From contig LVZN01000002.1 of NCBI GenBank assembly GCA_001695645.1, positions 1-32,000 on the forward strand: a DNA stretch of 32,000 nucleotides, written 5' to 3'. This DNA is from Erysipelotrichaceae bacterium MTC7. GTDB lineage: Bacteria; Bacillota_I; Bacilli_A; Erysipelotrichales; Erysipelotrichaceae. Numbering within the stretch: position 1 is the stretch's first letter; each line of letters opens with the position of its first letter. This document shows positions 11,994 through 32,000 of this stretch, in pieces. The notes beneath the pieces are model-generated. The model was not told the DNA's origin. It ran no database searches and saw nothing but the letters and a program-made list of their open reading frames with translations. The position numbers were made by a program, and so were the translations under genes.

Positions 11994-11997
11994 CCCA

Positions 11998-12893: not shown

Positions 12894-12895
12894 AT

Positions 12896-13147: not shown

Positions 13148-13159
13148 AGATACCTCCAA

Positions 13160-17204: not shown

Positions 17205-17517
17205 AGATGTTTTCTGTTCGGTAGGGCCTCACCCCAGGCCGCAGGAAACGGGCCCGGATGATGTTTCGCACCACCTTTTCAAGCGGGAGCCCGTCTTTCT
17301 CATACATCGCCAGCAAAAAGGCCGGGAGCGCCACCGCCATCATAAGAAACATGGCCCCGGTGTTGCCGATAGAGCTCCGGGCCAGCAGGTAGGACGGGAC
17401 GCCCACCGCCGCCGCGATGCCGAAGCACACAAGCTGGCGTTTCGTCAGATTAAAGGCAAGTTTGGTTTTGACCTTTGATAGATCGTTGGGAACATTCACA
17501 TAGGGAATTTTGATCAC
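17113..17517 (-). CDS. PrgI/TcpE-like small membrane protein
   Basis: PYVNVPNDLSKVKTKLAFNLTKRQLVCFG plus two TM segments, in the usual position immediately upstream of VirB4. Start codon uncertain: GTG abuts the SD, and ATT lies 8 nt after AGGAG. Confidence 0.7.
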   Translation of the reverse strand: MIKIPYVNVPNDLSKVKTKLAFNLTKRQLVCFGIAAAVGVPSYLLARSSIGNTGAMFLMMAVALPAFLLAMYEKDGLPLEKVVRNIIRARFLRPGVRPYRTENIYAPFTHRGAVGKEDAIAKSRKSKARLRKGR

Positions 17518-17535
17518 TCCTTTCCGGCCCGGCTA

Positions 17536-17558
17536 CCTCTGGACAAAGTGTCCAGAAG
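17536..17558 (+). repeat. ICE palindrome copy R8
   Basis: CCTCTGGACAAAGTGTCCAGAAG, 11 nt after the C5-methyltransferase stop. Confidence 0.9.
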
Positions 17559-17569
17559 TACGGGTAATT

Positions 17570-20000: not shown

Positions 20001-20014
20001 TGAAGCACCTCCCG

Positions 20015-20881
20015 TCAATGCGCCCCGAAGATGCGCTGGGCGATGCCGCCCGTCTTAAACAGCATAAAGCAGAGTAAAACCGTGTAGCCCACAATGCCCC
20101 AAATGGCCCCAATGGGGTCGCCGCTGGTGGCGATCCCCTGGACAAGCACCGCGTAAATGGCAACGCACACCAGAATGAGCATCCCTTGAAAGCCGACAGC
20201 GAACAGGGAGCGCAGATAATTCTGGCCCGTTTGCCCCACCTCCCGATGGGCCAGGGTAGCCATAGGGATAGGGGCCAAGCTGGTCAGCAAATAGATTTCC
20301 AGCATCCTGCCATAGACCAACACAAAAATGACAATGCCCAGCGCCCACATGGTCACACCGATAATGGAGGACTGGAGCCACAGGCCGAGAAGCGGCCCCA
20401 AGTCCATGCCCTCCAGGGTGGTTTCCAGCTCCGCCAGCATATCCGGCGTGATGTCCGTGGAGCCCTGGATGAGCCCGCCCGCCTGGGCGATCACGGACTG
20501 CGACACATCGAACACCGCCATCACGATATGAAAGGTGTTGGACAGAATGAGAATGGCACAAGCCGTCTTGAACATCCATTTATAGATATTCGCCACATCA
20601 AACTCGTGCATATTGTTTTTTTCCAAAAGCATCTGAATCAGCTCATAGGTGGCAACAAAGGTCAGCACCATCCCGGCGATGGGTAAGATCACCGTTTCGG
20701 AAAGCTGGCGTATAAGGGAGAAAACCCCGGCGTTCCACGCCGCCGGGGTAGTCCCCACTTGTACCGCGATCTCCCCGACCTGGGCGTTGACGTAATCGGT
20801 GAGCCCCTCCAGGTTTCCCATGATCCCGCCAATCAGCAGCTCTTTGAGCCAGTCCGTGAGCCAGTCGGTGAGAAAATCCAT
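20015..20881 (-). CDS. VirB6/TrbL-like polytopic membrane protein (CD1112 type)
   Basis: 288 aa with multiple TM segments, positioned between Maff2 and the VirB4 block. Confidence 0.78.
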   Translation of the reverse strand: MDFLTDWLTDWLKELLIGGIMGNLEGLTDYVNAQVGEIAVQVGTTPAAWNAGVFSLIRQLSETVILPIAGMVLTFVATYELIQMLLEKNNMHEFDVANIYKWMFKTACAILILSNTFHIVMAVFDVSQSVIAQAGGLIQGSTDITPDMLAELETTLEGMDLGPLLGLWLQSSIIGVTMWALGIVIFVLVYGRMLEIYLLTSLAPIPMATLAHREVGQTGQNYLRSLFAVGFQGMLILVCVAIYAVLVQGIATSGDPIGAIWGIVGYTVLLCFMLFKTGGIAQRIFGAH

Positions 20882-20890
20882 AATCCCTCC

Positions 20891-21103
20891 TTAGAACAAA
20901 CCAGACAGCAGGGGGATCAGCGTGGTGCCCAAAAGGATAATGCCGCCTCCGGCCATGAGCTGCTTCATGCCCTGGCTTTTGGAGCCAGGATTATCCGATC
21001 CGTAGCCCTCCAGCAAATTCACCACGCCCCACACGCCAAGACCAGCGCCGAGGGCAACAACGAGGGTCTGCAAAGTATCGATCGCGGAAGAAAAAAACTG
21101 CAT
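20891..21103 (-). CDS. Maff2-family small membrane protein
   Basis: 70 aa with two hydrophobic helices around the GSDNPGSKSQGMKQL loop. Confidence 0.68.
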   Translation of the reverse strand: MQFFSSAIDTLQTLVVALGAGLGVWGVVNLLEGYGSDNPGSKSQGMKQLMAGGGIILLGTTLIPLLSGLF

Positions 21104-21240
21104 AGAGCCTCCATTTCTCCGGGGATATTCCCGGCCTCGTCACCGCAAACTTCATATCATTCCTTTCCGCGCAAGCGCGAAAAGTCATTCATTCCGTTGC
21201 GGTTCCTCTTCCCACAAAATCTTTGATTTTGCGGGAACCC

Positions 21241-21268
21241 TAATAAATAAGCCGCCATCTCTGGCGGC
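21241..21268 (-). terminator. Rho-independent terminator-like hairpin after traG/virD4
   Basis: The minus strand reads GCCGCC-AGAGAT-GGCGGC then TTATTTATT. Confidence 0.45.
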
Positions 21269-21277
21269 AGGTTACGA

Positions 21278-21300
21278 CCTCTGGACACTTTGTCCAGAAG
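21278..21300 (-). repeat. ICE palindrome copy R11
   Basis: CCTCTGGACACTTTGTCCAGAAG, 6 nt after the VirD4 stop. Confidence 0.9.
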
Positions 21301-21306
21301 TAGGAT

Positions 21307-23160
21307 TTATACATAGGCATCCGGGTCATCCACATCGTCATAGTTGAGGATGTCCTCGTCCTCGCCTATGGGCCCTGTGTCTGTCCCGTCTGCCTCGTAC
21401 ACCTCACAAGCCTCGTTCAGCCCAGGCCGCCTGCGGCGGTTGATGAGCTTATCAAGGGAAAAGGCGTTTTTCACTTGATCGGCCTCAGCCGTATATTTGT
21501 AGTTCGGGTGCTGCTTCAAATCGTACTTTGGGGAATAGAACGGGGGCAGGCCCCGGAGCTGCAAAATGCACCTGTCGCCGGGCATGGTAGCAAGCTCGGC
21601 GGGGGTCATCAGCTCCCGGCCAAGTCGCTGGGTGTTGAGGTTGTAGCTTTCCGACTGGCCTTTGGAGCGCCCGTCCGTCTGCATATAGATCGTGGACTTC
21701 CCCAGCCAGTTTTCCGAAATCTCCTTAATGGTGGAACTTTCCCTGCCGCCCAGGAAAACAACGCTGTCCATATTTCCCATGATCGTTTCCGCGTGTTTGT
21801 CATAAATGGCCTTGCACTGTGCCATCTGTTGGTAAAAGAGCGTCAGCGATATTTCACGGGAGCGGATAACGGCCACCAGCTTTTCCAGATTGGGCACCTG
21901 CCCTGTATTGGCCGCCTCGTCCCACAGCACCCGCACATGATGGGGCAGGCGGCCCCCGTGAACATTGTCCGCCCTCTCGCACAGCAGATTGAACATCTGC
22001 GAAAAGGCCAGAGCTACAAGAAAGTTGTAGGTTGGCGTGGTATCGGAAATGGTGAAGAAAACCGCCGTTTTCCGATCCCCGATGCGGTCAAGGGCCAGCT
22101 CGTCATAGCTCATGATCTCCCGGAGCTGGGGGATGTCAAAGGGGGCCAGCCGGGAGCCGCAGGAGATCAAAATGCTTTTGGCCGTCTTGCCGCTGGCTAA
22201 TTTGTATTTTTTGTACTGCTTCACCGCAAAGCAATCCGGTTTGCGCTTTTCCAGCCCCTTGAACATATAATCCACCGCGTTCATAAAGTTTTCGTTGTCC
22301 TCTTTGACCTCCATGCCGGAGATCATATCCACCAGGGTATTCATATTCCGATCCTCGGCGGGGCCCTCGAAAATGATATAGGCGATGAGGGCGCAATACA
22401 AAAGCGTTTCCGCCTTCGTCCAAAATGGGTCGCCCTCTTTGCCCTCGCCTTTGGTATTGGCTATGAGGGTATCGACAAACTTTAGGATGTCGGCCTCGCT
22501 GCGGATATACGACAGAGGGTTATAGTGCATACTTTGGGAAAAATCAATGGAATTGAACACCTTGATCCGATAGCCCCGCCGTTGCAGGAAAGCCCCCACC
22601 TGGGAGAGCACCCCGCCTTTTGGATCGACCACCACAAAGCTGCACCCGCCCTTTTTCTTTGCGCTGGCCTGGAGAAGCTGCGGGGTGAGCCAAAACCGTG
22701 TTTTGCCGGAGCCGGACGAACCGATCACACAGGCGTTAAGATTGCGGGCGTTGGCCGGGTTTTGGGGGCGAGTGTTCATGGTGAGAAGCTCCGTCCCGGT
22801 GAGAATGACATTGTTTTCAAAGACAGGATCGACGAAAGGGGCTATATCTTTCGGACAGCCCCAGCGGGCTGATCCGTACTCCTCATCCCGCCGAAATTTT
22901 TTGGCGTTCTTGCTTTTTACATAGATCAGCAGCCGGAAGCCCACCGCGCCCACAATGCCGATGAGCCAGTCAAAGGGATCAAGCCCCGGCGCGAGATCGG
23001 CAAAGGCCGGGCCTACCGTCTGCCCCAGGCCCATGAGCTTATGGGGTAAATCCGCGCCGGCGGCCAGCCGGTAGGCCGTCCCCAGCTTCAAGCAGGCCCA
23101 CAGCACAAACAAATAGGGGATGTTTGGTATCACATATTTTTTTACGCTATCTGTCCTCAT
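21307..23160 (-). CDS. VirD4/TraG-type type IV coupling protein (CD1115 type)
   Basis: 617 aa. N-terminal TM segments, Walker A GSSGSGKT and Walker B-like RVLWDEAAN. Confidence 0.93.
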   Translation of the reverse strand: MRTDSVKKYVIPNIPYLFVLWACLKLGTAYRLAAGADLPHKLMGLGQTVGPAFADLAPGLDPFDWLIGIVGAVGFRLLIYVKSKNAKKFRRDEEYGSARWGCPKDIAPFVDPVFENNVILTGTELLTMNTRPQNPANARNLNACVIGSSGSGKTRFWLTPQLLQASAKKKGGCSFVVVDPKGGVLSQVGAFLQRRGYRIKVFNSIDFSQSMHYNPLSYIRSEADILKFVDTLIANTKGEGKEGDPFWTKAETLLYCALIAYIIFEGPAEDRNMNTLVDMISGMEVKEDNENFMNAVDYMFKGLEKRKPDCFAVKQYKKYKLASGKTAKSILISCGSRLAPFDIPQLREIMSYDELALDRIGDRKTAVFFTISDTTPTYNFLVALAFSQMFNLLCERADNVHGGRLPHHVRVLWDEAANTGQVPNLEKLVAVIRSREISLTLFYQQMAQCKAIYDKHAETIMGNMDSVVFLGGRESSTIKEISENWLGKSTIYMQTDGRSKGQSESYNLNTQRLGRELMTPAELATMPGDRCILQLRGLPPFYSPKYDLKQHPNYKYTAEADQVKNAFSLDKLINRRRRPGLNEACEVYEADGTDTGPIGEDEDILNYDDVDDPDAYV

Positions 23161-23653
23161 GCACCGCCTCCTTTGTGCGTTCCAGCTTTTGGGCGGGCTG
23201 GCGGGCCGCTTCTGCGGCGGCCTCCTTGATCTGCTCCCGGATGGGGGCCTTTGCGGATTTGGTGCGCTTTAGCAGCCGTTTGGAATATTCGGAGAAACAG
23301 GCTGTGATCGCGTCGGCCTGCCCCGCCTTGAAGAACAGTAAGTGTTTATCCGGCGCGACTTGATAAAAAGCATAGTCCACATTCCATTTCCGGGCCACCC
23401 GGTCAAAGAGGGCCGGGGCCTCCACCTCGATACTGTTGGTGGCGGCCCCGTGGCCCATGAGCTGCCCCACCGTCTGCCTGCCGTGGGGCGTCTGTTTTGC
23501 CCGGTGGTGTTTGGCGATCTTCCGGGCAATCGCTCCCAGCACACAGGCAAGCCCCCGCGCCGTGAGCTTGCTTGCCTTGATAGATACCGCTATGGTTCGC
23601 CTGGAAATATCTTCATCTACCAGCCAAATCCCTCCTTCCCATGAAAAAAGCAC
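23147..23653 (-). CDS. PcfB/DUF3801-like protein
   Basis: The sequence and its position directly upstream of the coupling protein fit PcfB. The ORF-track GTG start lies in the flank of palindrome R12. GGAAGGAGGG is followed at good spacing only by CTG (23621-23623), so the start is uncertain. Confidence 0.68.
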   Translation of the reverse strand: MLFSWEGGIWLVDEDISRRTIAVSIKASKLTARGLACVLGAIARKIAKHHRAKQTPHGRQTVGQLMGHGAATNSIEVEAPALFDRVARKWNVDYAFYQVAPDKHLLFFKAGQADAITACFSEYSKRLLKRTKSAKAPIREQIKEAAAEAARQPAQKLERTKEAVHEDR

Positions 23654-23675
23654 CTCTGGACAAAGTGTCCAGGAG
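23653..23675 (+). repeat. ICE palindrome copy R12 (one arm mismatch)
   Basis: CCTCTGGACAAAGTGTCCAGGAG, 5 nt after the ardA stop. Confidence 0.87.
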
Positions 23676-23680
23676 TGCCG

Positions 23681-24390
23681 CTATCGGTCTGAATGGCCTT
23701 GCTCCGGGTTGGGGCGCTCCGCCGCCTGGGGGAAACGGCCAATGACTTCTTTGTAAGCCGCCATCTGCTCCCGGATGGAGAGCCGCGGGTAAGCAAAAAC
23801 CTTGTGTTCGGCGGGAATGTCCTCCCGCCCGTGGTAGTATTCAATAAACTGGCTGCCATTGGGGAGGAAAAAACCACCTTTGACAAAGCTGCCATCCTCA
23901 TTGATCCGCATATCCCGGCCATACGCCTCATAATCGAAATAATCCCGCAGGTTTTCGGGAATGTCGATCATCTCCATGTCCTCCGCGTAAATACGGCCCA
24001 GGGTTTCATCATCGGACACGCCGATATAGAAATCGTAGCAATCCAGGTTTTCCGCAAGGTTGATAAGGTCGCCCGCGCCGGAGGTGTGCTCGCCGCTGGC
24101 GACAGCCGCCTCAAACTTCTCCAAATCGCTTTTGTCCAGCTCGGAGAGCAGGCAGGCCAGATGGTTGAGCTCGTCAATGCTTTCGTATTCCCCAGGCAGG
24201 CATTGAGTTCCGGCAGGTCGCCGCCATAGTCGGCAATAAAAATCTCCTCATAGCGGATATTGTCAATGCCGATTTGTTTTAGGACTTCCTGTACCTCCTC
24301 CCTGGTGGTGGGGAATTTCAGAAGTGAGCTTGCCAGTTCGCCCTCGTTGTATTTCCCAAGATTGGTGACATACGCCTCGATCACCGCCAT
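23681..24390 (-). pseudogene. ardA: ArdA antirestriction gene with a -1 frameshift in a homopolymer run
   Basis: The N-terminal part MAVIEAYVTNLGKYNEGEL...DLPELNACLG is in one frame (start 24390). The C-terminal part ...EKFEAAVASGEHT...DCYDFYIGVSDDE...DYFDYEAYGRD is in another. Adding one G to the GGGG run (plus-strand CCCC, 24190-24193) restores LGEYESIDELNHLACLLSELDKSDLEKFEAAV. Confidence 0.85.
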
Positions 24391-24391
24391 A

Positions 24392-24733
24392 TCAGCGTCG
24401 CCTCTGGCCCTTGACAGTGAGGATGCCGTCCAGGGTGGTGGCGGTGATCCCAAGCCGCTGGGCCACCGCGATGTCATTTTTCACCGCTTCATCGACATGG
24501 CTCCCGCATACTACCAGCACACGGGAGCGCCGGAGCAGGTCGCGCCCCATGTCAATACCGCTTTTATGCTCCTCCGGCACCGCGTCATTGAGGAACAGCG
24601 GCAGATAGAGCATCGGGCAGATGGGGGAATACCCCGCATCGTAGACAATACGGCAATATTTAGCCGCCTGCTCCATAACCTCGCACTCGCCGCCGCGCCA
24701 TGCGGCGGTCACATACGCAAGGGGTCGTTTCAT
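24392..24733 (-). CDS. DUF4406-like / nucleoside deoxyribosyltransferase-like ICE protein (function tentative)
   Basis: 113 aa. SPICPMLYLPLFLND...RVLVVCG pattern. ATG after GGAGGTTTGGATT. Confidence 0.55.
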   Translation of the reverse strand: MKRPLAYVTAAWRGGECEVMEQAAKYCRIVYDAGYSPICPMLYLPLFLNDAVPEEHKSGIDMGRDLLRRSRVLVVCGSHVDEAVKNDIAVAQRLGITATTLDGILTVKGQRRR

Positions 24734-25001
24734 AATCCAAACCTCCGTTTCTTTTCCTTATATATAGGTAGGGTCAACCCTATCCCCCGCCCTTTCCCTA
24801 TCCAGGGAAAGGGGGCGGCTCTGGAGGATATACCCCCGCCGCTCGCCGGGAATAGCACAGCCGGGGCAGACCGTAAAGGGCAAGCCGCCGCAAAAGCGGC
24901 GGGCGTTCCGCCCCTTGACGGCCCACTCCCGGCTGTGCGGCGTCAAACCCGGCGACGGGGGATATATCACCGCAGAGCCCATCCCAAGCGCGGAGCGCAT
25001 A

Positions 25002-25024
25002 CCTCTGGACAAAGTGTCCAGAAG
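25002..25024 (+). repeat. ICE palindrome copy R13
   Basis: CCTCTGGACAAAGTGTCCAGAAG, 11 nt after the ParB-like stop. Confidence 0.9.
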
Positions 25025-25035
25025 CAGGGGGCCGG

Positions 25036-26502
25036 TCACTTGTCGAGCTCGTTCTTCTTCTCCGGCTTTGCCAGTTCGGGCGGCTGCTTCTCTTTCCACT
25101 CGTCCAGCAGGGCCATGATCTGTTCTTTCATTTTGGCAGGAGTGATTTCCTTGCCGAAATACTTGTTGAGTTCGTCGGTACTGATGATCACGTTGTCAAC
25201 CTCCCTTTTTTCTTCGCTTAAAATGCCGTCGATCACATCTCCGTTGAGCAGGCCCTCCTGGTCGAGCTCCCGGAGCCGCTTTGCCTGTTTGACCGAGGGG
25301 GAGGACTGCTCCCCATCAATAGACACGGCGATGAGCCGCTGGTTTTCCGGCTTGATATACGACAGCTCCACGGCGGGCATAAAGCCCATATTTTTTGTGT
25401 CTACCTTTTCCAGAAGCTCCGGCACAAGATGGTTGAGCCGGACATAACGGAGCACCTTTTTATAGTTCATATCATGCTCCTTGCCCACGATCTCCACCGA
25501 GAGCTTACCCAGGGCCTCCGCCTCCTGGTCATTTTTGGGCCGGGCCCCCTGGCGCTTGATGGCCTCCAGCTCCAAATCCAGGAGTTTTGCCAATTCGCTG
25601 GGGAGAGGGTCGCCCCGCTGCTTGTTGCTGTTCTTCATTTCCCGGACAGCCTCAAGGTCGGTCATCTCACGGACAATACAGGGGATCTCGTCCAGGCCAG
25701 CCCGCTCACCGCCATGACAGCGGCGATGTCCCGCGATGATCTCATAGCCCTTGCCGTCCTTTTCCGGGCGGACGGTGGCCGGGGTCATAATGCCGTGTTC
25801 CCTGATCGTCCCCACCAGATCGTCCATCGCCTTATCGTCCTGCACCTTGAATGGGTGATCCCGTAAAGTATGGAATGGGTGAAGCTCCGACAGCTTCAAA
25901 TAGACGATTTTGCCCTGTTCCACCGGGCGGGGAGGCACCTCCGGCGTGGGCGGCAGCTTGATCTCCGGGGTAGGGGCCTCTGCCTCCTTGACCGGGGCGG
26001 GCTTGCCCTTTGGGACTTTCACACCGGGCCCAACACCCCCGGAACCTGTTTCCTTGTCCTTTTTTCCACCTCTGGACACTTTGTCCAGAACACCGGGGGC
26101 CGGGGACTTGCCAAGGGCCGCCTTGTCAGCCTTGGCCGGGCGGCCCTTGCGGGGCTCCGGCCCCTTTTCCGCTTTGCCGCCCTGGGGGTGATCCTGTTCC
26201 TTTGGGGGACGGCCCCGGCGCTTTGCCGTTTTTTCCTCCGGCTCCACTTTTTTATCCTGGTTGAGGGATTTCCCCGTCTTTTCAGCCTCGACCTGCGGCG
26301 CAGGCTGGGCTGGAGCGTCCTTGCCCATACCGGGGATCACAGACTGCTCCGGCTGGGGTGCCGGGCCGGTGCCAGCAGCGGGCCCCTCTACCTCTTCCGG
26401 GACAGGGGGCTTTGTTACAGCCTGGGCGTCCCCAGCAGGGCCCCCGCCAGGGTGATCCAGGACAGGGGACTCCGGGCCTGTTTTCAGTTTGTCATCTGCC
26501 AT
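25036..26502 (-). CDS. ParB/Srx-like N-terminal-domain protein with a long low-complexity N-terminus
   Basis: 488 aa. About 190 aa are rich in P, K, G, E and A. Then comes the ParB N-domain (IVYLKLSELHPF...GYEIIAGHRRCHG, GxxR motif). ATG after AAGGAGG. Palindrome R14 is in frame (VLDKVSRGG). Confidence 0.88.
   Translation of the reverse strand: MADDKLKTGPESPVLDHPGGGPAGDAQAVTKPPVPEEVEGPAAGTGPAPQPEQSVIPGMGKDAPAQPAPQVEAEKTGKSLNQDKKVEPEEKTAKRRGRPPKEQDHPQGGKAEKGPEPRKGRPAKADKAALGKSPAPGVLDKVSRGGKKDKETGSGGVGPGVKVPKGKPAPVKEAEAPTPEIKLPPTPEVPPRPVEQGKIVYLKLSELHPFHTLRDHPFKVQDDKAMDDLVGTIREHGIMTPATVRPEKDGKGYEIIAGHRRCHGGERAGLDEIPCIVREMTDLEAVREMKNSNKQRGDPLPSELAKLLDLELEAIKRQGARPKNDQEAEALGKLSVEIVGKEHDMNYKKVLRYVRLNHLVPELLEKVDTKNMGFMPAVELSYIKPENQRLIAVSIDGEQSSPSVKQAKRLRELDQEGLLNGDVIDGILSEEKREVDNVIISTDELNKYFGKEITPAKMKEQIMALLDEWKEKQPPELAKPEKKNELDK
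26069..26091 (-). repeat. ICE palindrome copy R14 (in frame in the ParB-like CDS)
   Basis: CCTCTGGACACTTTGTCCAGAAC. Confidence 0.88.
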
Positions 26503-26690: not shown

Positions 26691-27680
26691 AGTAGTAACA
26701 AGTATAAAACGATAACTATCAAGGAAATCTTTCGTGGTCCGGATACTCAGAAATATGCTTTTGAATTGTCAGATGGCTATTGCATTGAAACGGTAAGCAT
26801 TAAAAGAAAAACTGGTACTACTGTATGCGTGAGCACCATGATAGGTTGCCCTGTTGGGTGCATCTTTTGCGCCTCTGGTGAAAATGGATTTGTCAGAAAT
26901 CTAACACCATCTGAAATAGTTCAACAAGTAATACTGATAAATGGTAGAGTAAATAGGATTGTATTCATGGGCATGGGAGAACCTCTGTTCAATTATGATA
27001 ACGTGATAAAGTCCATTCATATATTAAGAGACCGCAAAGGACTTGATTTTCCAACAGATGGTATAACAATATCAACAACGGGACCGCTCCCTCAGATGAA
27101 GAAGTTGAGAGAAGAACATTTAAAAATCCAACTTACGTTATCCCTGCATGCCACGAATCAGCATGTAAGGGACTATATCATGCCGCATATGAAAGGGTAT
27201 GATATAAATGAAGTAGTTCAATCAGTACTCTCATATTCAGAAAGACATAATCGTAGCGTTACTATAGCATATTTGCTTATACCGGGTGTAAATGATCGTG
27301 CGAATGATGTAAAACAGTTGGGAAGATGGTTTCGTGACAAAAATGTATTGATTAATCTTTTACAATACAATGAAACGGATTGTAAAGCAGTTCGAAGACC
27401 AAACAAACAGGAACTCGTTGCATTTCGTGATAAGTTAAATAAGGTGGGACTTACTGTGAAAATCAGAGAATCCCGAGGTGGCAATATAAAAGCCGCATGT
27501 GGTCAATTGGTAAGTAGATTAAATAACCGCAATATGAGTGCACCCAAGAAAAAAGGAGCTTCGGAATTGGATACAGGTTCGTCGAACAATGCTGGATCTT
27601 CGAGTAGATTGAAGCCAAGTAAGAGACGTTATGTAAACAATAAAAGCAAGAATGGAAAAAAGGGTTCATCGCATAAATAA
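26691..27680 (+). pseudogene. RlmN/Cfr-family radical-SAM methyltransferase lacking its N-terminal domain
   Basis: KYAFELSDGYCIETV, VCVSTMIGCPVGCIFCASG (CX3CX2C), FMGMGEP and NIKAACGQL. The frame is open only from 26691, and the ORF-track TTG is at 26766. About 60-80 N-terminal residues found in full-length family members are absent. It also has a Lys/Ser-rich C-terminal tail. Confidence 0.7.
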
Positions 27681-27751
27681 GAGCATGTCGGAGTGTGATC
27701 TAGTATTTGCGTTCACTGATCTGCATGAACTTCACAAATGGAGGCTCGATT

Positions 27752-27967
27752 ATGAATGAATTTGTTGATATGCATGTCCATTCAAAATTCTCAATTGATG
27801 GAATGTCTACGATGGAGGATTATTGTCTGATTGCCGGCAAAACGGGTACAAGAGTTATTTGTTTTACTGAACATGTGGATTTTAATTCAGAAGAAACAAT
27901 AAAGCATTATATAAAACATCACAATGAAGAACACCCTGTAGATAATTTCACGATTGATGAAGAGTAA
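27752..27967 (+). pseudogene. PHP-domain (HisJ-type phosphoesterase) N-terminal fragment
   Basis: MNEFVDMHVHSKFSIDG...VICFTEHVDF is the first PHP metal-binding motif set. The ORF ends after 71 aa, whereas family members I know are several-fold longer. Confidence 0.6.
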
Positions 27968-28182: not shown

Positions 28183-28392
28183 CTATTCCTCTGTTCGTTC
28201 AATCTCCACGATGTCATCAAGCTCACAGTCGAGTGCTTTGCAGATGCGAAGCAGTACATCCGTAGTGACATTCTCATCCTTGCCGAGTTTCGCAAGAGAA
28301 GATGAACTGATGCCCGCCGCTTTTCGCAAATCCGTCTTCTTCATATCTTTGTCAATCAGTAGCTTCCACAGTTTCTTATAACTCATCTTCAT
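28183..28392 (-). CDS. Small HTH (XRE/HTH_26-like) protein, last gene of the ABC-3C-like operon
   Basis: MKMSYKKLWKLLIDKDMKKTDLRKAAGISSSSLAKLGKDENVTTDVLLRICKALDCELDDIVE. ATG at 28390-28392 lies 9 nt after AAGAGG and overlaps the ATPase 3' end by 17 nt. Confidence 0.8.
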   Translation of the reverse strand: MKMSYKKLWKLLIDKDMKKTDLRKAAGISSSSLAKLGKDENVTTDVLLRICKALDCELDDIVEIERTEE

Positions 28393-30034
28393 TTTGAGAT
28401 ACCTCTTTATTCCATGACTCACCATAAAGTTCACAGTTACCATCAGACAGTTTCAATACGGTGTTGTCAGCTAATATTTTCTGAGTATCCGGCATATAAG
28501 CCGCCTGCTTATCGAACGCTATAAACACCTGCTTTCTGCTCTGCGCGTATATTTTCATAATGCCGTCAACCGCTCCGTCACCGATATTCTTCAGAATAAG
28601 GGAGTCGTGCGCGATAGCCGGGAGTGCCGTAAGATACAGAACGGCGAGGTCGTAAACCACCATACCCTTGTAATTGGATCCTGTTCCCGTATCGTCCGGC
28701 GTTTCAAATCTGTAGCTGTTGTATTCGTTAAAGTGCAGATGAGGAGCTTTGCGCGACTCCGTGAAGAGGGAGTCGTTGAATTCCTTCATCTTGTCGTTGA
28801 TGGAACGCTCAATGTCCGCAAGGATATCCTCGATAGCGCGTTTCAGCATTTCATCTGCCTTCTTGCGGGCATCCTGCAGGTCGGTCAACGTAAGGTAAGC
28901 CTCATTCTGTGCTTTCAATGCGTCGATGCGACCTTTGATCTCGGAGTGCTTGTCCAGAAACTCCTTGGAGAGGTTTCCGACAAAACCGAGTTCGCTGATT
29001 TGCGTCTGCAATGCCTTTATCTGTTCCTGCAGATCGGCGATTTCTCCCTCAACAGACTGACGTTCGGCAGAAAACTGCTCGTCAAGGATAGCCGCCAGTT
29101 TCTGGTGATACTTTTCAACTTCATATAGTTTGCGGATGTTCACCTCCGGGAAAAACTCCTGTAAGGCGGACAGATCCGCTTCCGTTGGGTATAAGCCGTA
29201 TTCAAGGCTCATGTTCAGCAGGTTCAGCCTGCGCTGCTTGGACTGCATTTCAGTCTCAAGGCGCAGTTTGCTTGCCTGCAGCTGAGACTTGATGCGGCTT
29301 TTTTCTATATCTATACCTTTTTGATCTTCCACCTGCTCTGCGGTCAGATTGTCGAGTTCTACCTGCAGGCTGCGAATCTGCGCAACATTTTCGTCGTACT
29401 GCGTCTTGCCGCCAACCAAGTCGGGAACAAAGCGGTATTTCCGAGCCTCGCGGTATGCCGCCAGTTTTTTCTTCTGTTCCTCAAGGCGGCCGTTAAATAC
29501 CTCCACGTCCTTGTAGCGGTCAAACAGCTTCACAAGTATGTCGATGGACTTCTGCATGCTCTCGCCGGGGAGCCCTTTGAGCGGACGGCGCTCGTCCGTA
29601 TTTTCTTTGCCGTAGATGCGGAAGAAACTGCTCATGGTCTCACGGAACGAAAGCCCGGAGAAGTCGATATGATATTTTTCTTTGAGCCAGTTGGCAAATT
29701 CCTGCTTTGTCCAGACATCCCCGGTCAGCTGGTATCCCTCGGAACACACATGGATGTCATCAGGGGACGCAGTGTTGCGGGCAAAGTAGTACGGCTTTCC
29801 GTCAAAAGCAAAGGTGAAGAAAATCGTATGGTCGCCGATATGCTTTACACCATCGCTGGCAAGATAGGTGTTGCCGCCGAATACAAAATCAATAGCAAGC
29901 ATGGCGGAGGACTTGCCGATGGAGTTCTCGCCATCCTCTTTTCCAAGAACGACGTTCAATCCGTCTTTGAAACGGATTGGAGGCCGTTCTTTTCCTTTTT
30001 CCTTAAACGCAGGTGAGGTCATTTCTATAAGCAT
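28376..30034 (-). CDS. SMC/Rad50-like ABC ATPase with central coiled coil (DUF2326 / ABC-3C ATPase-like)
   Basis: 552 aa. Walker A GENSIGKS near the N-terminus, a heptad-rich middle of about 200 aa, and C-terminal TGSNYKG plus Walker-B-like LPAIAHDS. Confidence 0.82.
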   Translation of the reverse strand: MLIEMTSPAFKEKGKERPPIRFKDGLNVVLGKEDGENSIGKSSAMLAIDFVFGGNTYLASDGVKHIGDHTIFFTFAFDGKPYYFARNTASPDDIHVCSEGYQLTGDVWTKQEFANWLKEKYHIDFSGLSFRETMSSFFRIYGKENTDERRPLKGLPGESMQKSIDILVKLFDRYKDVEVFNGRLEEQKKKLAAYREARKYRFVPDLVGGKTQYDENVAQIRSLQVELDNLTAEQVEDQKGIDIEKSRIKSQLQASKLRLETEMQSKQRRLNLLNMSLEYGLYPTEADLSALQEFFPEVNIRKLYEVEKYHQKLAAILDEQFSAERQSVEGEIADLQEQIKALQTQISELGFVGNLSKEFLDKHSEIKGRIDALKAQNEAYLTLTDLQDARKKADEMLKRAIEDILADIERSINDKMKEFNDSLFTESRKAPHLHFNEYNSYRFETPDDTGTGSNYKGMVVYDLAVLYLTALPAIAHDSLILKNIGDGAVDGIMKIYAQSRKQVFIAFDKQAAYMPDTQKILADNTVLKLSDGNCELYGESWNKEVSQNEDEL

Positions 30035-30249
30035 GAGTACACCTCCCCATCTTCATTGATATCAACCGCCCGGAGAGCATACAGGCAGTCCATGACGGAC
30101 AAAAAGTCCGTAGCATCGGCCAGAGCCGGTCTCATCACAAGGAATAAGTCCTTCACTTCTTTAGGACCGTTTTTCAGTTCGGTCAGCACCTTGGGAACCA
30201 GTTCCAGGGTGCTTGCTTTATATGAATACAGTTTATTCGGTAATTGCAT
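30025..30249 (-). CDS. Small middle-component-like protein (74 aa)
   Basis: MQLPNKLYSYKASTLELVPKVLTELKNGPKEVKDLF.... The ATG at 30247-30249 overlaps the upstream gene end by 17 nt, and its stop overlaps the ATPase start by 10 nt. Confidence 0.6.
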   Translation of the reverse strand: MQLPNKLYSYKASTLELVPKVLTELKNGPKEVKDLFLVMRPALADATDFLSVMDCLYALRAVDINEDGEVYSCL

Positions 30250-31402
30250 CGAAAACCTCGCAGCTCTGAACAAAATAGGAGACAACGATCTGGCAGTAGA
30301 TATCGTCCTGCAGGGTAACGCGGTGTATCTTCCCCGCAATCTCGTTAAATATCTCCAGGCGTGACTTATTTGCCTTTTTCAGTCTTTTATAAAAAGCGTG
30401 GATCTGATCCTGTATCTCATCGTAGTCGATTTCTCCGCGCTTATCCAGGTTCATCATGATTTCCCTGATCCGAGGATAGTAGGTCGTGACGTACCCGTTC
30501 ACGGCTATGTATAACGCCATGTCCTGTGTGGGACTCAGTTTCTGTTTGATCTCTTTCGGGTCAAGGGAAGCTCCAACAAGCTCTTTTTCTCCGAGCTTTT
30601 TGACCTTCTTGATTACGCCCACGATGCCTTTTTCAAGCGGAAGGTCATCCAGCAAGTGGACGCTCTGCTTATGCGTGGACAGGATGTTCTTTATCTCTTT
30701 CAGTTCTTTGGACAGTTTCTTGCTGTCATCCAGAAGATATGTAGCGTAGCACTGCGGACACATCGCCATCAGGTTATCCGGCGTGGCGGGTTTCTGTTTG
30801 TCTATCAGGCTTACCTCGTATGTATGAACCGCTTTGCCTCTATTGGTGATGGTCAGTTGTCTGCCGCAGCCGGGAAACGGGCAGTAACCGTCCGTTTCTC
30901 CAAGAAGGTAATCCCCATATCTGATTTTTAGGTCTGATGCAAGCTGTTGTTGCTGCTGTTTCTGCAAAGCGTCCTGCGGAACAAGTCCGGCAGACTCCTG
31001 GACGATCTCAACCATCCAGCCGGAAATGGTGTCTGCGACATTATCCGCATCAAGCGTTGGGTCATAACCCTTCAAATCGTCAGCAAGGAGGCTCCGGGAA
31101 GTGTCACTGTGTTCGTTGATCCGCTCGACCATAACCTCCGGCGTAAGCCTGTACACGATGGAGCCTGCCAGTTTCTTTGGCAGCTTTCTTTTTGTGTAAC
31201 TGCGGATCGTCTCATCACTCAGCTTAACAGACGGGTCTTTCCCGGTTCCCCACTCATCCTCGTTCACAGTCGTTATCATCGCCATAAGCTCGCGGAAGAA
31301 GTACGGAACATCGTCGCCATCGGCTAAATGCTTTTTCATGATAGGAAACAGCGTTTTAAATTCCACGTTGGCCTGACACTCCTTTACCAAGATTTGCACC
31401 AC
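30233..31402 (-). CDS. Effector-like protein with a Cys4/HNH-like motif
   Basis: 389-aa ORF. CPFPGCGRQL...HTYEVSLID...DNLMAMCPQCY resembles a zinc-ribbon-framed HNH. Start uncertain: GTG at 31402, GTG at 31366 after AAGGAG, or ATG at 31339. Confidence 0.72.
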   Translation of the reverse strand: MVQILVKECQANVEFKTLFPIMKKHLADGDDVPYFFRELMAMITTVNEDEWGTGKDPSVKLSDETIRSYTKRKLPKKLAGSIVYRLTPEVMVERINEHSDTSRSLLADDLKGYDPTLDADNVADTISGWMVEIVQESAGLVPQDALQKQQQQQLASDLKIRYGDYLLGETDGYCPFPGCGRQLTITNRGKAVHTYEVSLIDKQKPATPDNLMAMCPQCYATYLLDDSKKLSKELKEIKNILSTHKQSVHLLDDLPLEKGIVGVIKKVKKLGEKELVGASLDPKEIKQKLSPTQDMALYIAVNGYVTTYYPRIREIMMNLDKRGEIDYDEIQDQIHAFYKRLKKANKSRLEIFNEIAGKIHRVTLQDDIYCQIVVSYFVQSCEVFDAITE

Positions 31403-31424
31403 GACGCACCACGATGCACCAAAC
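31395..31424 (-). repeat. Three tandem 10-bp repeats at the 5' edge of the operon
   Basis: The plus strand reads TGCACCACGA CGCACCACGA TGCACCAAAC. The minus strand reads TGGTGCATCG TGGTGCGTCG TGGTGCA. Confidence 0.6.
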
Positions 31425-32000
31425 CATCCCCAGATCGAGAGGTCTCATTTTCTATAATGAAAACGACTTCTGAAACGACAGTGGGTGGGTCAAAAGACAC
31501 CAAAGATAGTATACCACAAATGAGTTCAAATGTCAAATAAATTATTTGCGAAAAGGACGCAGCAAGATCATGAACAGGAATACTGAGAAAATCACGGTGC
31601 GTGGACTTCAGTTTCCAATCTCTCGTGCGCTACCTGTGAACAGAAAAATTTCGCAGGAGGTTAAAAATCCGCTGATTTTCTTTGACTGTGACTTGAGGAC
31701 TAAGAATTTTTCAGAAGAGTCCGCTCAAACCGGCAGTTCATCTCCAGTGGATAGTGAGGGGGTTGAATTTTTCGGCAGGAAGTAGAAGGAAACCGTCAGA
31801 TTTACCCTTCTCCCAAGGCTACCTGATAGGAGCCACACAAACAAGGTAAAAGGCGGGCGACCGCTTTTACATAACAAAATATTTCAATGCCTGATTACGT
31901 ATAAGGGCAAAGGATACATATATCGGACAAGCTGCTGCGGCGGCGAAAGTGCGATATGGAGTACCCTTTCTTCCTTATACCCTTTTGCAGGCAAGTAAGG

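What the first reader, a model, noticed from the sequence alone, without database searches (positions are those of the whole stretch)
28183..31402. Four overlapping genes resembling an ABC-three-component (ABC-3C) conflict system with an appended HTH
**Gene order (minus strand).**
- A 389-aa protein with a Cys4/HNH-like motif (CPFPGC...H...N...CPQC) and a long helical C-terminal region.
- A 74-aa small protein.
- A 552-aa ABC ATPase with Walker A GENSIGKS, a central coiled coil of about 200 aa and C-terminal signature and Walker-B-like motifs. This matches my recollection of DUF2326.
- A 69-aa HTH protein.

**Operon structure.** All three junctions overlap, by 17, 10 and 17 nt, which implies translational coupling.

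**Assignment.** The effector, middle-component and ABC ATPase architecture matches the ABC-3C systems that the Aravind group predicted computationally as biological-conflict (anti-phage or anti-MGE) systems. To my knowledge it lacks mechanistic characterisation. The tightly coupled fourth HTH gene and the island context (next to a broken PHP gene) make it a good candidate for an uncharacterised defence system.
Basis: partly seen in the sequence, partly recalled or inferred. Interest (0 to 1): 0.8.

Follow-up and report, generated by a model that had tools for sequence, protein, structure and literature searches.

The report
Four-gene Lamassu defence cassette with repressor
This is a mobile, self-contained copy of the known Lamassu (ABC-3C) anti-phage system. 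It differs from studied versions in two ways: it always carries its own small repressor gene, and its "weapon" protein has lost the residues a DNA-cutting enzyme would need.

Summary
**Observation.** The four overlapping minus-strand genes are real, with junction overlaps of 17, 10 and 17 nt.

**Identity.** They are a short type II Lamassu (ABC-3C) operon:
- LmuA carries a CTD11 tail (E 7.7e-38).
- LmuC is MC7 (E 1.4e-22).
- LmuB is DUF2326. Its predicted fold matches solved Lamassu LmuB structures.
- The fourth gene is a 69-aa HTH about 60% identical to the structure 3TYR/3TYS, and its best family match is the vanG repressor VanU.

The claim that the family lacks mechanistic study is out of date: phage assays date from 2018–2022 and cryo-EM structures from 2025.

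**What is not in the papers I could search:**
- The HTH follows lmuB in 93 of 101 distinct operons, down to 29% LmuA identity.
- The LmuA "HNH" keeps its four zinc cysteines and structural Asn. Both catalytic His positions are unconserved across the family, so nuclease output is doubtful.
- A conserved leader holds three or four 10-nt-period direct repeats just upstream of the ribosome-binding site. Their core co-varies with LmuA residue 56.
- Promoter plus four genes (window 28184–31558) move as one 3.4-kb cassette between conjugative elements and prophages.

**Verdict.** New variant of a known kind, of moderate interest.

The parts
28184..31558 (-). The whole mobile cassette: promoter, leader and four genes.
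   Evidence: BLASTN of the window against related loci: 91% identity to L001 over exactly 28184–31558, with no homology beyond either end. The same unit lies in different mobile-element contexts.
31508..31536 (-). Sigma-70-type promoter TTGACA, 17 nt, (TG)TATACT.
   Evidence: It matches 11 of 12 positions and has an extended -10. It is conserved 150–183 nt upstream of the LmuA start in the closer relatives.
31534..31548 (.). Perfect dyad CAAATAA-T-TTATTTG overlapping the -35 hexamer. It is the candidate operator of the HTH.
   Evidence: Related loci carry TTCGCAAA/TTTGCGAA boxes, or an ATTGG-N6-CCAAT palindrome, at this place. VanU_G binds imperfect inverted repeats overlapping -35 (PMC4405338). 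Binding here is inferred.
31447..31458 (-). Conserved leader box ATTATAGAAAAT, function unknown.
   Evidence: The TATA core is invariant in 14 and in 16 aligned leaders. It is also present in the Streptococcus phage locus L081.
31392..31421 (-). Three direct repeats with a 10-nt period: TGGTGCAtcg, TGGTGCGtcg, TGGTGCAaat. The array ends 8 nt upstream of the ribosome-binding site.
   Evidence: this is the only such array in the window. An equivalent array of 3–4 copies is present in 130 of 154 related loci, against 1.3% of random 90-nt windows. There is no conserved RNA fold and no Rfam match.
30233..31366 (-). lmuA, 377 aa from GTG 31366 (the maximal ORF starts at 31402).
   Evidence: The AF2 model has mean pLDDT 87.
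30920..31366 (-). LmuA N-terminal helical domain (residues 1–149). It has no family or fold match and includes residue S56, which co-varies with the leader repeats.
   Evidence: PADLOC LmuA model PDLC03857 matches residues 13–151 of the 389-aa ORF, E 6.8e-12. There are no invariant polar residues. Covariation is shown.
30731..30919 (-). LmuA HNH-derived zinc-ribbon module (residues 150–212) that lacks the catalytic histidines.
   Evidence: C162, C167, N198, C203 and C206 are conserved. The catalytic-His position is E184 (E/K/T/D/R/C/N/A across the family). The last metal-His position is Y207 (A/H/F/S/Y). Foldseek matches Cap5 and McrA HNH domains.
30251..30649 (-). LmuA C-terminal docking and oligomerisation domain CTD11 (residues 240–372).
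   Evidence: Pfam PF20277, E 7.7e-38. All 40 family members tested match it.
30025..30249 (-). lmuC, the 74-aa middle component (MC7).
   Evidence: Pfam PF20292, E 1.4e-22. Full-length match to phrog_6259. Conserved in every operon.
28376..30034 (-). lmuB, a 552-aa Rad50/SMC-like ABC ATPase with a coiled coil and no CxxC zinc hook.
   Evidence: DUF2326 2.7e-15 and PADLOC LmuB 2e-13. Walker A and Walker B residues are invariant. Foldseek of the AF2 model matches YydD, LmuAB–DNA, Salmonella LmuACB and LmuABC–DNA.
28183..28392 (-). Fourth gene: a 69-aa XRE/Cro-type HTH (HTH_26), VanU-like. It is the predicted autorepressor.
   Evidence: Pfam HTH_26 6e-20. NCBIfam VanU 5e-26, but below that family's cut-off. 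PDB 3TYR/3TYS, E 7e-22. It directly follows lmuB in 93 of 101 distinct operons.

Best explanation
**What it is.** The region is a self-contained, horizontally mobile short type II Lamassu (ABC-3C, CTD11/MC7/DUF2326 subtype) operon with a built-in regulator.

**How it works, by homology with solved Lamassu systems (inferred, not shown here).**
- Two LmuB protomers and one LmuC hold a single LmuA by its C-terminal CTD11 domain.
- The LmuB heads and LmuC detect DNA ends or replication intermediates of an invading phage or plasmid.
- ATP-dependent opening of the complex releases LmuA.
- Released LmuA oligomerises through its CTD, which switches on the N-terminal output domain.

**Where this subtype departs from the studied ones.**
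1. The output domain is an HNH-derived Cys4 zinc ribbon preceded by a helical domain. It lacks the catalytic histidines and has no other conserved catalytic-type residue. The output is therefore more likely nucleic-acid binding or occlusion, or recruitment of another factor, than direct DNA cleavage.
2. A VanU-like HTH, translationally coupled to lmuB, most likely represses the cassette's strong promoter through the dyad over the -35 hexamer. This negative feedback would keep a potentially toxic system low. It would also allow a burst of expression when the cassette enters a new host.
3. A conserved array of three or four 10-nt-period direct repeats next to the ribosome-binding site adds a second layer of cis-regulation. 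Its reader is not established.
For: **Membership.**
- CTD11, MC7 and DUF2326 HMM matches are all above Pfam cut-offs.
- PADLOC matches LmuA and LmuB models.
- The LmuB fold matches solved Lamassu LmuB chains 9ux7, 9hqx, 9hqu and 9nyg, and B. subtilis YydD.
- The Walker A and short-Lamassu Walker B patterns are invariant.
- The order LmuA, LmuC, LmuB holds in 101 of 101 operons.

**Mechanism template.**

**Degenerate HNH.**
- The family profile matches the EcoKMcrA HNH domain at E 5e-7, with 'yEv' aligned to McrA 'HHV' and 'CaA' aligned to 'CH'.
- Column counts from 64 sequences of a 50%-identity-clustered library: position 184 is E35/K5/T5/D4/R4, and position 207 is A26/H11/F10.
- Both positions vary even among relatives at least 54% identical to the window protein.

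**HTH as repressor.**
- It matches 3TYR/3TYS at E 7e-22 and NCBIfam VanU at 5e-26.
- VanU_G is an experimentally shown autorepressor that binds inverted repeats over -35.
- A perfect dyad overlaps -35 in the window.
- The promoter-proximal palindrome type tracks the HTH recognition-helix class: 11 of 17 against 1 of 67.
- The HTH is present in 93 of 101 operons and its junction with lmuB is tight.

**Cassette mobility.**
Against: - No experiment on this subtype was found in the searchable literature. Defence activity, complex formation and LmuA oligomerisation are all extrapolated from other CTD families, for example the CTD7 family named.
- Loss of canonical HNH residues does not exclude an unconventional active site or an activity assembled only in the oligomer.
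- HTH binding to the dyad is inferred from a homologue. The dyad itself is only loosely conserved: a CAAA...TTTG core in close relatives, and other box arrangements elsewhere.
- The association between HTH class and palindrome type is confounded by phylogeny.
- The SD-to-GTG spacing of 12 nt is somewhat long.
Confidence: 0.6

Rival explanations
1. It is an ordinary abortive-infection Lamassu whose LmuA is an active HNH-type nuclease. On this view the unusual residues (E184, D189, N198 and the zinc site), or an active site formed between protomers of the released oligomer, still cleave DNA. The HTH is only a housekeeping regulator.
For: - The HNH fold and zinc site are intact.
- HNH is a listed effector class of short Lamassu.
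- In solved systems the active site forms only between two N-terminal domains in the tetramer.
- 7 of 40 family members still weakly match Pfam HNH.
Against: - No His, Asp or Glu in the N-terminal 240 residues reaches 80% conservation across the family.
- The general-base position takes E, K, T, D, R, C, N or A, and the last metal-ligand position takes A, H, F, S, Y or C.
- This pattern is that of relaxed selection, not of a substituted catalytic residue.
Confidence: 0.2
2. It is a regulatory Lamassu. The LmuA N-terminal domain is a sequence-specific nucleic-acid-binding module that recognises the three or four 10-nt-period repeats in its own leader, as DNA or as mRNA next to the ribosome-binding site. 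Free or oligomerised LmuA thereby feeds back on its own synthesis. More generally, the output of sensing would be binding, not cutting.
For: - The array is present in 130 of 154 loci against 1.3% of control windows.
- Its copy number (3–4) is in the range of the LmuA tetramer reported for other systems.
- The array sits at a fixed distance from the SD and start codon, while its distance from the -10 hexamer varies from 69 to 97 nt.
- The repeat core varies by lineage, whereas the HTH recognition helix does not.
- LmuA residue 56 has the highest mutual information with the core class of all 377 LmuA columns: 0.83 bit.
- S56 pairs with ACA, GCA or ACG cores in 21 distinct loci (three further S loci gave off-pattern TAT or AAA cores). 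N56 pairs with TCA or TAA in 13. There are no S–TCA and no N–(A/G)CA combinations.
- These states fall in at least four clades of an LmuB tree.
- Residue 56 tracks the core inside the L021/L029/L023/L024 clade, where LmuB column 36 does not.
Against: - The covariation is confounded by phylogeny and by physical linkage: about 200 bp separate the array from codon 56.
- An LmuB column reaches 0.75 bit.
- T56 occurs with both core classes.
- No HTH or other nucleic-acid-binding family matches the N-terminal domain by Pfam or Foldseek. The HTH-like reading of residues 51–73 is my own, made by eye.
- The array occurs nowhere else in the window, so no other target is evident.
Confidence: 0.2
3. The HTH is not a transcriptional repressor. 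It is instead a stoichiometric subunit or antitoxin-like neutraliser of the complex, for example an extra DNA-recognition factor. That would explain why it is translationally coupled to lmuB.
For: - The tight B→H junction is conserved.
- The HTH is much better conserved than LmuA. My estimate from the alignment is about 50% identity where LmuA is 29%.
- LmuC-type small HTH-like subunits do contact DNA in solved complexes.
Against: - The closest characterised homologue is a free-standing promoter-binding repressor.
- Candidate operators sit at the cassette's own promoter.
- Eight operons lack the gene or have it disrupted, for example by an IS element in L066, while LmuA, LmuC and LmuB stay intact.
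Confidence: 0.1
4. It is not primarily anti-phage. The cassette would serve the mobile elements that carry it, for example in competition between elements, stabilisation by addiction, or surveillance of the element's own replication.
For: - It is always found on mobile elements: an ICE here, prophage-like elements next to a DNA polymerase/ssDNA-binding/DUF2800 replication module, and 200 IMG/VR contigs.
- DdmABC also acts against plasmids.
Against: - Defence cargo on mobile elements is the norm for bona fide anti-phage systems.
- The neighbouring cargo is other defence genes: Dcm/EcoRII/Vsr and a type I methylase.
Confidence: 0.1

Closest known systems
Short type II Lamassu (LmuACB / DdmABC of Vibrio cholerae; Salmonella enterica LmuACB; PDB 9hqu, 9hqx, 9nyg)
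   Same: - Same gene order: effector, middle component, then SMC-like ATPase.
- The LmuB fold matches at Foldseek E 1e-9 to 1e-11.
- LmuB is about 550 aa, has Walker B of the form hhhhD-S, and has no zinc hook, as in Vc-Cap4.
- LmuA has a dedicated C-terminal docking domain.
   Different: - LmuA carries CTD11 rather than CTD7, and MC7 is only 74 aa.
- The N-terminal domain is an HNH-derived module without catalytic His, instead of a Cap4 nuclease.
- There is a conserved fourth HTH gene and a repeat-bearing leader. Neither is mentioned in the papers read.
- There is no detectable sequence similarity to the solved chains.
ABC-3C systems, CTD11 / MC7 / DUF2326 families (Pfam PF20277, PF20292, PF10088)
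   Same: All three proteins score above the Pfam gathering thresholds.
   Different: ABC-3C is defined as three components. Here a fourth gene is conserved in 92% of distinct operons.
Bacillus subtilis YydB/YydC/YydD (YydD is the best structural match, PDB 9a6c integrative model)
   Same: YydD is the top Foldseek hit for LmuB, at E 3.5e-17. From my own knowledge, it is also a DUF2326 ATPase in an ABC-3C operon.
   Different: From my own knowledge, not tested here, YydB is a different effector (a phosphoesterase-type protein).
VanU_G, the third regulator of the vanG vancomycin-resistance operon (Enterococcus faecalis; NCBIfam NF000090). The solved structure 3TYR/3TYS is, from memory, VanU_G; the tool names it only 'transcriptional regulator'.
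   Same: - A Cro/C1-type HTH of about 70 aa. Identity to 3TYR/3TYS is about 60% over 63 residues by my count from the alignment (E 7e-22).
- VanU_G negatively autoregulates by binding imperfect inverted repeats over -35.
- A dyad overlaps the -35 hexamer here.
   Different: - The score of 90.6 bits is below the VanU equivalog cut-off of 150, so this is a paralogue, not VanU.
- It is encoded last, not first, in its operon.
- It has no partner two-component system.
Controller (C) proteins of restriction–modification systems
   Same: Both are small XRE-type HTH proteins encoded inside a mobile, potentially toxic defence operon and acting on its own promoter. This is an analogy from established knowledge.
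   Different: C proteins usually lie upstream of the toxic gene and act as delayed activators as well as repressors. No homology test was made here.
HNH effector domains of CBASS Cap5 and of McrA restriction enzymes
   Same: Same ββα-metal fold with a Cys4 zinc site. Foldseek probabilities are 0.99 for 8fmf and 0.92 for 6ghc. The family profile matches 6ghc at E 5e-7.
   Different: The general-base His and the terminal metal-binding His are replaced and unconserved.

Membership tests
Lamassu / ABC-3C | SMC/Rad50-like ABC ATPase (LmuB) with a split head and an intervening coiled coil. | tested here: met
   DUF2326 2.7e-15. PADLOC LmuB 2e-13. The AF2 model has beta-rich N- and C-terminal head halves and long helices over residues 158–423. 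Foldseek hits to LmuB chains of 9ux7, 9hqx, 9hqu and 9nyg and to Rad50/SMC heads have E 1e-9 to 1e-11.
Lamassu / ABC-3C | Walker A Gx4GK[S/T], and the short-Lamassu Walker B hhhhD[Q/S/T/E]. | tested here: met
   G35-E-N-S-I-G-K41-S42 and A-I-A-H476-D477-S478. S38, I39, G40, K41, H476, D477 and S478 are invariant in 25 relatives.
Lamassu / ABC-3C | Small middle component (LmuC) encoded between the effector and the ATPase. | tested here: met
   MC7 PF20292, E 1.4e-22. The position is conserved in 101 of 101 operons.
Lamassu / ABC-3C | Effector protein with a family-specific C-terminal docking/oligomerisation domain (CTD). | tested here: met
   CTD11 PF20277, E 7.7e-38; 40 of 40 family members match.
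Lamassu / ABC-3C | N-terminal enzymatic effector domain with a conserved active site. | tested here: not met
   The HNH fold is present, but the catalytic His positions are E184 and Y207 and vary across the family. No conserved catalytic-type residue is found in residues 1–240. A clade without an effector domain is also reported within Lamassu, so this does not exclude membership.
Lamassu / ABC-3C | LmuA1–LmuB2–LmuC1 sequestration complex, and effector oligomerisation after release. | not testable with these tools
   Only single-chain prediction was available. This feature is inferred.
Lamassu / ABC-3C | Protection against phage or plasmids that depends on the ATPase. | not testable with these tools
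   No experiment on a CTD11/MC7 system was found.
HNH (ββα-metal) nucleases | ββα-metal fold with a structural Asn and, in this subgroup, a Cys4 zinc site. | tested here: met
   C162, C167, N198, C203 and C206 are conserved. Strands lie within residues 172–202 and a helix spans 204–212.
HNH (ββα-metal) nucleases | Conserved general-base His at the end of strand 1, and a metal-ligand His/Asn after the second CxxC. | tested here: not met
   Position 184 is E35/K5/T5/D4/R4 and position 207 is A26/H11/F10/S6 of 64 sequences.
VanU (NCBIfam NF000090 equivalog) | Score above the curated cut-off for the whole protein. | tested here: not met
   90.6 bits against a cut-off of 150. It is a close paralogue in the HTH_26 family (Pfam 6e-20, above cut-off).
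XRE/Cro-type autorepressor | Binds an operator at its own promoter and lowers transcription. | not testable with these tools
   The evidence is indirect only: the dyad over -35, promoter-proximal boxes or palindromes in relatives, and the behaviour of the homologue VanU_G.

The most novel reading that the evidence does not exclude
In this Lamassu subtype the released "effector" is not an enzyme. It is a sequence-specific nucleic-acid-binding protein. Its N-terminal helical domain, with residue 56 contacting the fifth base, and its dead-HNH zinc ribbon would recognise the three or four 10-nt-period GGTNCA repeats beside the ribosome-binding site of its own operon. An SMC-like sensor of foreign DNA would then be wired to gene regulation or nucleic-acid occlusion rather than to killing by degradation. 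The co-evolving protein–repeat pair would keep related cassettes from interfering with each other.
Probability: 0.2. Interest if true: 0.8.

Novelty: new variant of a known kind. Interest (0 to 1): 0.5.

Why it matters
**Abundance.** The identical LmuB protein is indexed in 1,850 blocks of the public assembly collection. Relatives occur in 528 species genomes and in 200 viral contigs. This is one of the common Lamassu forms in gut Clostridia, Gardnerella, Anaerococcus and streptococcal prophages.

**Link to resistance.** In this window it travels on a conjugative element that also carries a cfr-family resistance gene.

**Three open questions it addresses.**
1. What can a Lamassu do when its effector has no active site? 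This tests whether release and oligomerisation is a general switch that can drive non-enzymatic outputs.
2. How is autoimmunity from a mobile, toxic SMC-type system controlled on entry to a new host? A built-in repressor and a second cis-element give a tractable model.
3. Where did VanU, the odd third regulator of vanG operons, come from? Its closest relatives appear to be these cassette repressors.

Tried and rejected
- **Sequence searches of the PDB** with single proteins and with family profiles for LmuB and LmuC found no solved Lamassu chain. The best LmuB hits were a BAR protein at E 0.004 and the Rad50 N-terminal half at E about 1. Only fold comparison recovered them.
- **The LmuA N-terminal domain and CTD** gave no PDB or BFVD fold match. 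Only the HNH part matched. Pfam scans of 40 members gave no HTH family for the N-terminal domain.
- **A structured RNA in the leader** was rejected. There is no Rfam match at E ≤ 1. RNAalifold predicts no pairs over 16 leaders. The single-sequence fold is no better than shuffles, with z = 0.31.
- **A leader peptide** over the repeats was rejected. The ATG in GGGGATGG is not conserved; it reads ATAG or CTTG in relatives.
- **The HTH as reader of the variable repeat core** is unlikely. Its recognition helix ISSSSLAKLGK stays constant in loci whose cores are TGGTGCA, TGGTACG, TGGTTCA or TTCCTCA. Its best column has 0.67 bit of mutual information and lies outside that helix.
- **The Krishnan et al. 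2020 ABC-3C paper** could not be read because it is not held. No supplementary tables of the PNAS Lamassu paper are held either. I therefore could not check whether its "HNH" clade is this family.
It was redone with database homologues.

Full report
**1. Observation**

Four minus-strand ORFs occupy window 28183–31402. Reading the sequence confirms the junctions.
- lmuA stops at 30233, and the next gene starts at ATG 30249, a 17-nt overlap.
- That gene stops at 30025, and the ATPase starts at ATG 30034, a 10-nt overlap.
- The ATPase stops at 28376, and the HTH starts at ATG 28392, a 17-nt overlap.

The first gene probably starts at GTG 31366 rather than 31402. Most homologues are 377 aa and begin MEFKTLFP. 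Gene calls on public contigs that carry the identical operon are 377/74/552/69 aa. An AAGGAG lies 12 nt upstream of that GTG.

The arrangement is not a chance pile-up of ORFs. I collected 167 related loci from species genomes, GenBank phages, metagenome assemblies and IMG/VR.
- The order LmuA, LmuC, LmuB holds in all 101 distinct complete operons, and the HTH follows lmuB in 93 of them.
- In 56 distinct operons the A→C overlap is 17 nt in 43.
- C→B overlaps by 7–26 nt in all 56.
- B→H ranges from a 41-nt overlap (17 nt the most common) to a gap of at most 10 nt in 54 of 55.

**2. Identity**

Family and fold matches:
- Pfam assigns the LmuA C-terminal part to CTD11 of ABC-3C (7.7e-38).
- The 74-aa protein is ABC-3C middle component 7 (1.4e-22).
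- The C-terminal head half of the 552-aa protein is DUF2326 (2.7e-15).
- The last protein is HTH_26 (6e-20).
- PADLOC matches LmuA (6.8e-12, N-terminal 150 residues) and LmuB (2e-13).

ABC-3C, type II Lamassu and DdmABC are names for the same superfamily.

Neither single sequences nor family profiles detect the solved Lamassu chains by sequence. I therefore predicted LmuB (pLDDT 75.7) and searched by fold. The best hits are:
- B. subtilis YydD (3.5e-17);
- LmuB of an LmuAB–DNA complex (1e-11);
- Salmonella LmuACB (2.5e-10);
- LmuABC–DNA (1.4e-9).

Cohesin, condensin and Rad50 heads rank among them at similar E-values.

Walker A (GENSIGKS) and the short-Lamassu Walker B pattern (AIAHDS, i.e. 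hhhhD-S) are invariant in 25 relatives. There is no CxxC zinc hook, as in the V. cholerae clade.

The family assignment stands.

**3. The effector is an HNH fold without HNH chemistry**

The LmuA model is confident (pLDDT 87). It has three parts: a helical domain (residues 1–149), a small β-hairpin plus helix module (about 150–212), and the helical CTD11.

Evidence that the middle module is an HNH fold:
- Foldseek matches only this module, to the HNH domains of CBASS Cap5 (probability 0.99) and EcoKMcrA (0.92).
- A 40-sequence family profile matches the EcoKMcrA HNH domain at E 5e-7.

In that alignment the family consensus 'yEv' lies under McrA 'HHV', and 'C-a-A' lies under 'C-H'.

Across 64 sequences of a 50%-identity-clustered library, the conserved residues are the four cysteines (C162, C167, C203, C206), N198 and hydrophobic core positions.
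- The general-base position (184) is E35/K5/T5/D4/R4.
- The last metal-ligand position (207) is A26/H11/F10/S6.
- Among relatives at least 54% identical to the window protein, position 184 already takes E, C, K, N, A or D.
- No His, Asp or Glu in the first 240 residues reaches 80% conservation.

This is the signature of a domain kept for its shape or its nucleic-acid binding, not for catalysis. The nuclease function is still not supported.

**4. The fourth gene**

The 69-aa HTH matches PDB 3TYR/3TYS at E 7e-22, with about 60% identity by my count. That entry is labelled only "transcriptional regulator"; from memory it is VanU_G. The HTH also matches the NCBIfam VanU model at 5e-26, but at 90.6 bits it is below the 150-bit equivalog cut-off.

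VanU_G is experimentally a repressor. It binds imperfect inverted repeats overlapping the -35 of its own promoter and autoregulates (PMC4405338).

The cassette's promoter is strong: TTGACA, 17 nt, TG-n-TATACT, matching 11 of 12 positions. A perfect dyad, CAAATAA-T-TTATTTG, overlaps its -35 hexamer.

Relatives carry related elements at the same place.
- The closer and middle clades have TTCGCAAA/TTTGCGAA boxes around -35. One example is an inverted 9-nt pair flanking -35 in L074. Another is three direct copies in Streptococcus phage phiStag1.
- The distant clade has the recognition helix ...NS[ILV]AKLGKNEPVR... and an ATTGG-N6-CCAAT palindrome just upstream of -35. This is found in 11 of 17 distinct loci of that clade, against 1 of 67 elsewhere.

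This is what an autorepressor and its operator would look like. The association is not independent of phylogeny, and binding is inferred.

**5. A second conserved cis-element**

A leader of about 120 nt lies between the promoter and the ribosome-binding site. It contains a conserved ATTATAnAAAAT box and, ending 8 nt before the SD, three direct repeats with an exact 10-nt period: TGGTGCAtcg, TGGTGCGtcg, TGGTGCAaat (window 31421..31392).

The array is widespread. An array of 3–4 copies with a 9–11-nt period lies in the 90 nt upstream of lmuA in 130 of 154 loci. That corresponds to 73 of 91 distinct leaders. The rate in random 90-nt windows of the same loci is 1.3%.

The core differs by lineage:

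| Locus | Core | Copies |
|---|---|---|
| L006 | TGGTACG | 3 |
| L011 | TGGTTCA | 3 |
| L037 | GGGTCA | 3 |
| L046 | TTCCTCAA | 3 |
| L056 | AGATAC | 4 |
| L060 | AGGACAA | 4 |
| L072 | GGGGCG | 4 |

Other properties of the array:
- L025 has four copies where its close relative L006 has three.
- The array keeps its distance to the SD and start codon, while its distance to the -10 hexamer varies from 69 to 97 nt.
- It is not a structured RNA.
- It is not a leader peptide.
- It occurs nowhere else in the window.

The HTH recognition helix does not change with the core. One LmuA residue does. Position 56 sits in a helix–turn–helix-like stretch, DETIRSYTKRKLPKKLAGSIVYRL; that reading is mine, made by eye, and Pfam does not support it.
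- This column has the highest mutual information with the core class of all 377 LmuA columns, at 0.83 bit.
- In distinct loci, S56 goes with ACA, GCA or ACG cores (21 loci; three further S loci gave off-pattern TAT or AAA cores). N56 goes with TCA or TAA (13 loci). T56 goes with either, and K56 mostly with ACA. There are no S–TCA or N–(A/G)CA combinations.
- On an LmuB tree the N/TCA state appears in at least four separate clades.
- Inside one clade residue 56 tracks the core where the next-best column in any protein does not. That column is LmuB position 36, at 0.75 bit.

Physical linkage and shared ancestry remain valid alternative explanations. I treat "LmuA reads the repeats" as a lead, not a result.

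**6. Context and mobility**

The window is a Firmicute-type conjugative element.

| Feature | Coordinates |
|---|---|
| Serine recombinase | 1159–2640 |
| Relaxase | 8210–10012 |
| DarA_C protein | 10676–11581 |
| CD1107-like protein | 12168–12893 |
| NlpC/P60 | 13160–14815 |
| VirB4-like ATPase | 14796–17204 |
| Two orphan DNA methylases | 17570–18709 and 19209–20018 |
| TrbL | 20015–20881 |
| Coupling protein | 21307–23160 |
| ArdA | 23968–24477 |
| ParB | 25036–26502 |

Homology to the best relative (L001, 91%) runs exactly from 28184, the base after the HTH stop codon, to 31558, 22 bp upstream of the -35 hexamer. It stops at both ends. Promoter, leader and four genes therefore form one transferable 3.4-kb unit.

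The identical operon also sits in a different element. There it lies between a replication module and variable defence cargo.
- The replication module holds DNA polymerase A, an Enc34-type ssDNA-binding protein, a DUF2800 nuclease and a sigma-70 region-4 protein.
- The cargo holds ASCH and Dcm–EcoRII–Vsr.

The same four genes occur in Streptococcus prophages, for example phiStag1. That record annotates them as CTD11 protein, "MafI family immunity protein", DUF2326 protein and yozG XRE regulator. They also make up full-length PHROG families 6948, 6259 and 5467.

Nearly identical copies occur in organisms of different phyla. L077–L080, from Atopobium, Collinsella, Actinotignum and Alterileibacterium, are one example.

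**7. Mechanism, with what is shown and what is inferred**

Shown here:
- family membership;
- the LmuB fold;
- conserved ATPase motifs;
- conserved operon architecture;
- a degenerate HNH;
- a conserved promoter, dyad and repeats;
- cassette mobility.

Inferred from solved homologues:
- an LmuA1–LmuB2–LmuC1 sequestration complex;
- sensing of DNA ends or replication intermediates;
- ATP-driven release;
- CTD-mediated oligomerisation.

Inferred from VanU_G: autorepression by the HTH. Because the repressor gene is last and coupled to lmuB, its level reports operon output. On transfer to a naive cell the strong promoter would fire until repressor accumulates.

Open: what oligomerised LmuA does. 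The options are binding or occlusion of nucleic acid, recruitment of a host nuclease, an unconventional active site, or regulation through the leader repeats.

**8. Comparison and novelty**

This is a member of Lamassu/ABC-3C. All structural criteria that could be tested are met, except a conserved enzymatic effector site.

HNH is already listed among short-Lamassu effector classes. A clade "without effector domain" is also known. The kind is therefore known, and it has been mechanistically studied.

Three features did not appear in any paper I could search or read:
- the conserved VanU-like fourth gene;
- the family-wide loss of the HNH catalytic residues;
- the repeat-bearing leader, with its possible co-evolution with LmuA.

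I could not read Krishnan et al. 2020 or the supplementary tables of the PNAS paper. Prior description of some of these points therefore cannot be excluded.

**Verdict.** New variant of a known kind; interest 0.5.

Noticed in passing
window 4257–5507 (minus strand), with 5530–6123 and 6202–7452: A Cfr-family 23S rRNA methyltransferase gene. It scores 585.8 bits on NCBIfam NF000424, above the 530 cut-off, and is fused to a C-terminal Cys-rich KTR domain. It lies next to a MarR-type gene and an rve-family transposase, in a low-GC island (about 40–45% GC) inside the roughly 60% GC conjugative element. This is a likely transferable multi-drug (PhLOPSA-type) resistance determinant on the same element as the Lamassu cassette.
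   Followed up: partly
window 26766–27680 (+) and 27707–27967 (+): A second RlmN/Cfr-like radical-SAM ORF lacks the first ~85 positions of the model: it matches from position 89 of 355 and scores below cut-off. It is followed by a PHP-domain stub (profile positions 1–49 of 164). In related contigs these are a 376-aa radical-SAM gene and a 262-aa PHP gene, with an HTH_3 gene and sometimes carbamoyltransferase and ABC genes. That is a recurrent module of unknown role beside the Lamassu cassette.
   Followed up: partly
window 31392–31421 (minus strand); equivalent positions in L001–L167: Three 10-nt-period direct repeats (TGGTGCA core) lie just upstream of the lmuA ribosome-binding site. An equivalent array is present in 84% of related loci, with lineage-specific cores and 3 or 4 copies. 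The core co-varies with LmuA residue 56.
   Followed up: yes
window 31447–31458 (minus strand): A leader box ATTATAGAAAAT with an invariant TATA core across aligned leaders, also present in a Streptococcus phage locus. It could be a second -10 element or a protein site. It remains unexplained.
   Followed up: no
window 31570–31785 (+): A 71-aa ORF transcribed divergently from the cassette promoter. It is called as a gene in all six public contigs that carry the identical operon. It has no Pfam or NCBIfam match and lies outside the block shared with L001. In many related elements a sigma-70 region-4 protein lies just beyond it.
   Followed up: partly
window 8210–26502: The conjugative backbone carries several counter-defence genes: ArdA (23968–24477), a DarA_C-domain protein (10676–11581) and two orphan DNA methyltransferases (17570–18709 C5 type, 19209–20018 N6/N4 type). 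The element therefore carries both anti-restriction and defence cargo.
   Followed up: no
window 28183–28392; PDB 3TYR/3TYS: The cassette repressor is about 60% identical to the solved structure 3TYR/3TYS, and its best family match is VanU, the unusual third regulator of vanG vancomycin-resistance operons. Relatives of this HTH sit in hundreds of Lamassu cassettes on Clostridia mobile elements. This suggests VanU was recruited from such a cassette regulator.
   Followed up: partly
L066 (Gardnerella sp. DNF00502), L045, L050, L073: In the few operons without an adjacent HTH, the gene is displaced or destroyed rather than never present. In L066 an IS-type transposase ORF follows a remnant of the HTH start. 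In L045 the HTH lies about 430 nt downstream. These are natural HTH-minus variants that could show the de-repressed phenotype.
   Followed up: partly
L081 (Streptococcus phage phiStag1, PP091924) 5125–5349: The MC7 middle component is annotated in GenBank as "MafI family immunity protein" with gene name mafI. This looks like a mis-transfer of a name onto a Lamassu LmuC.
   Followed up: no
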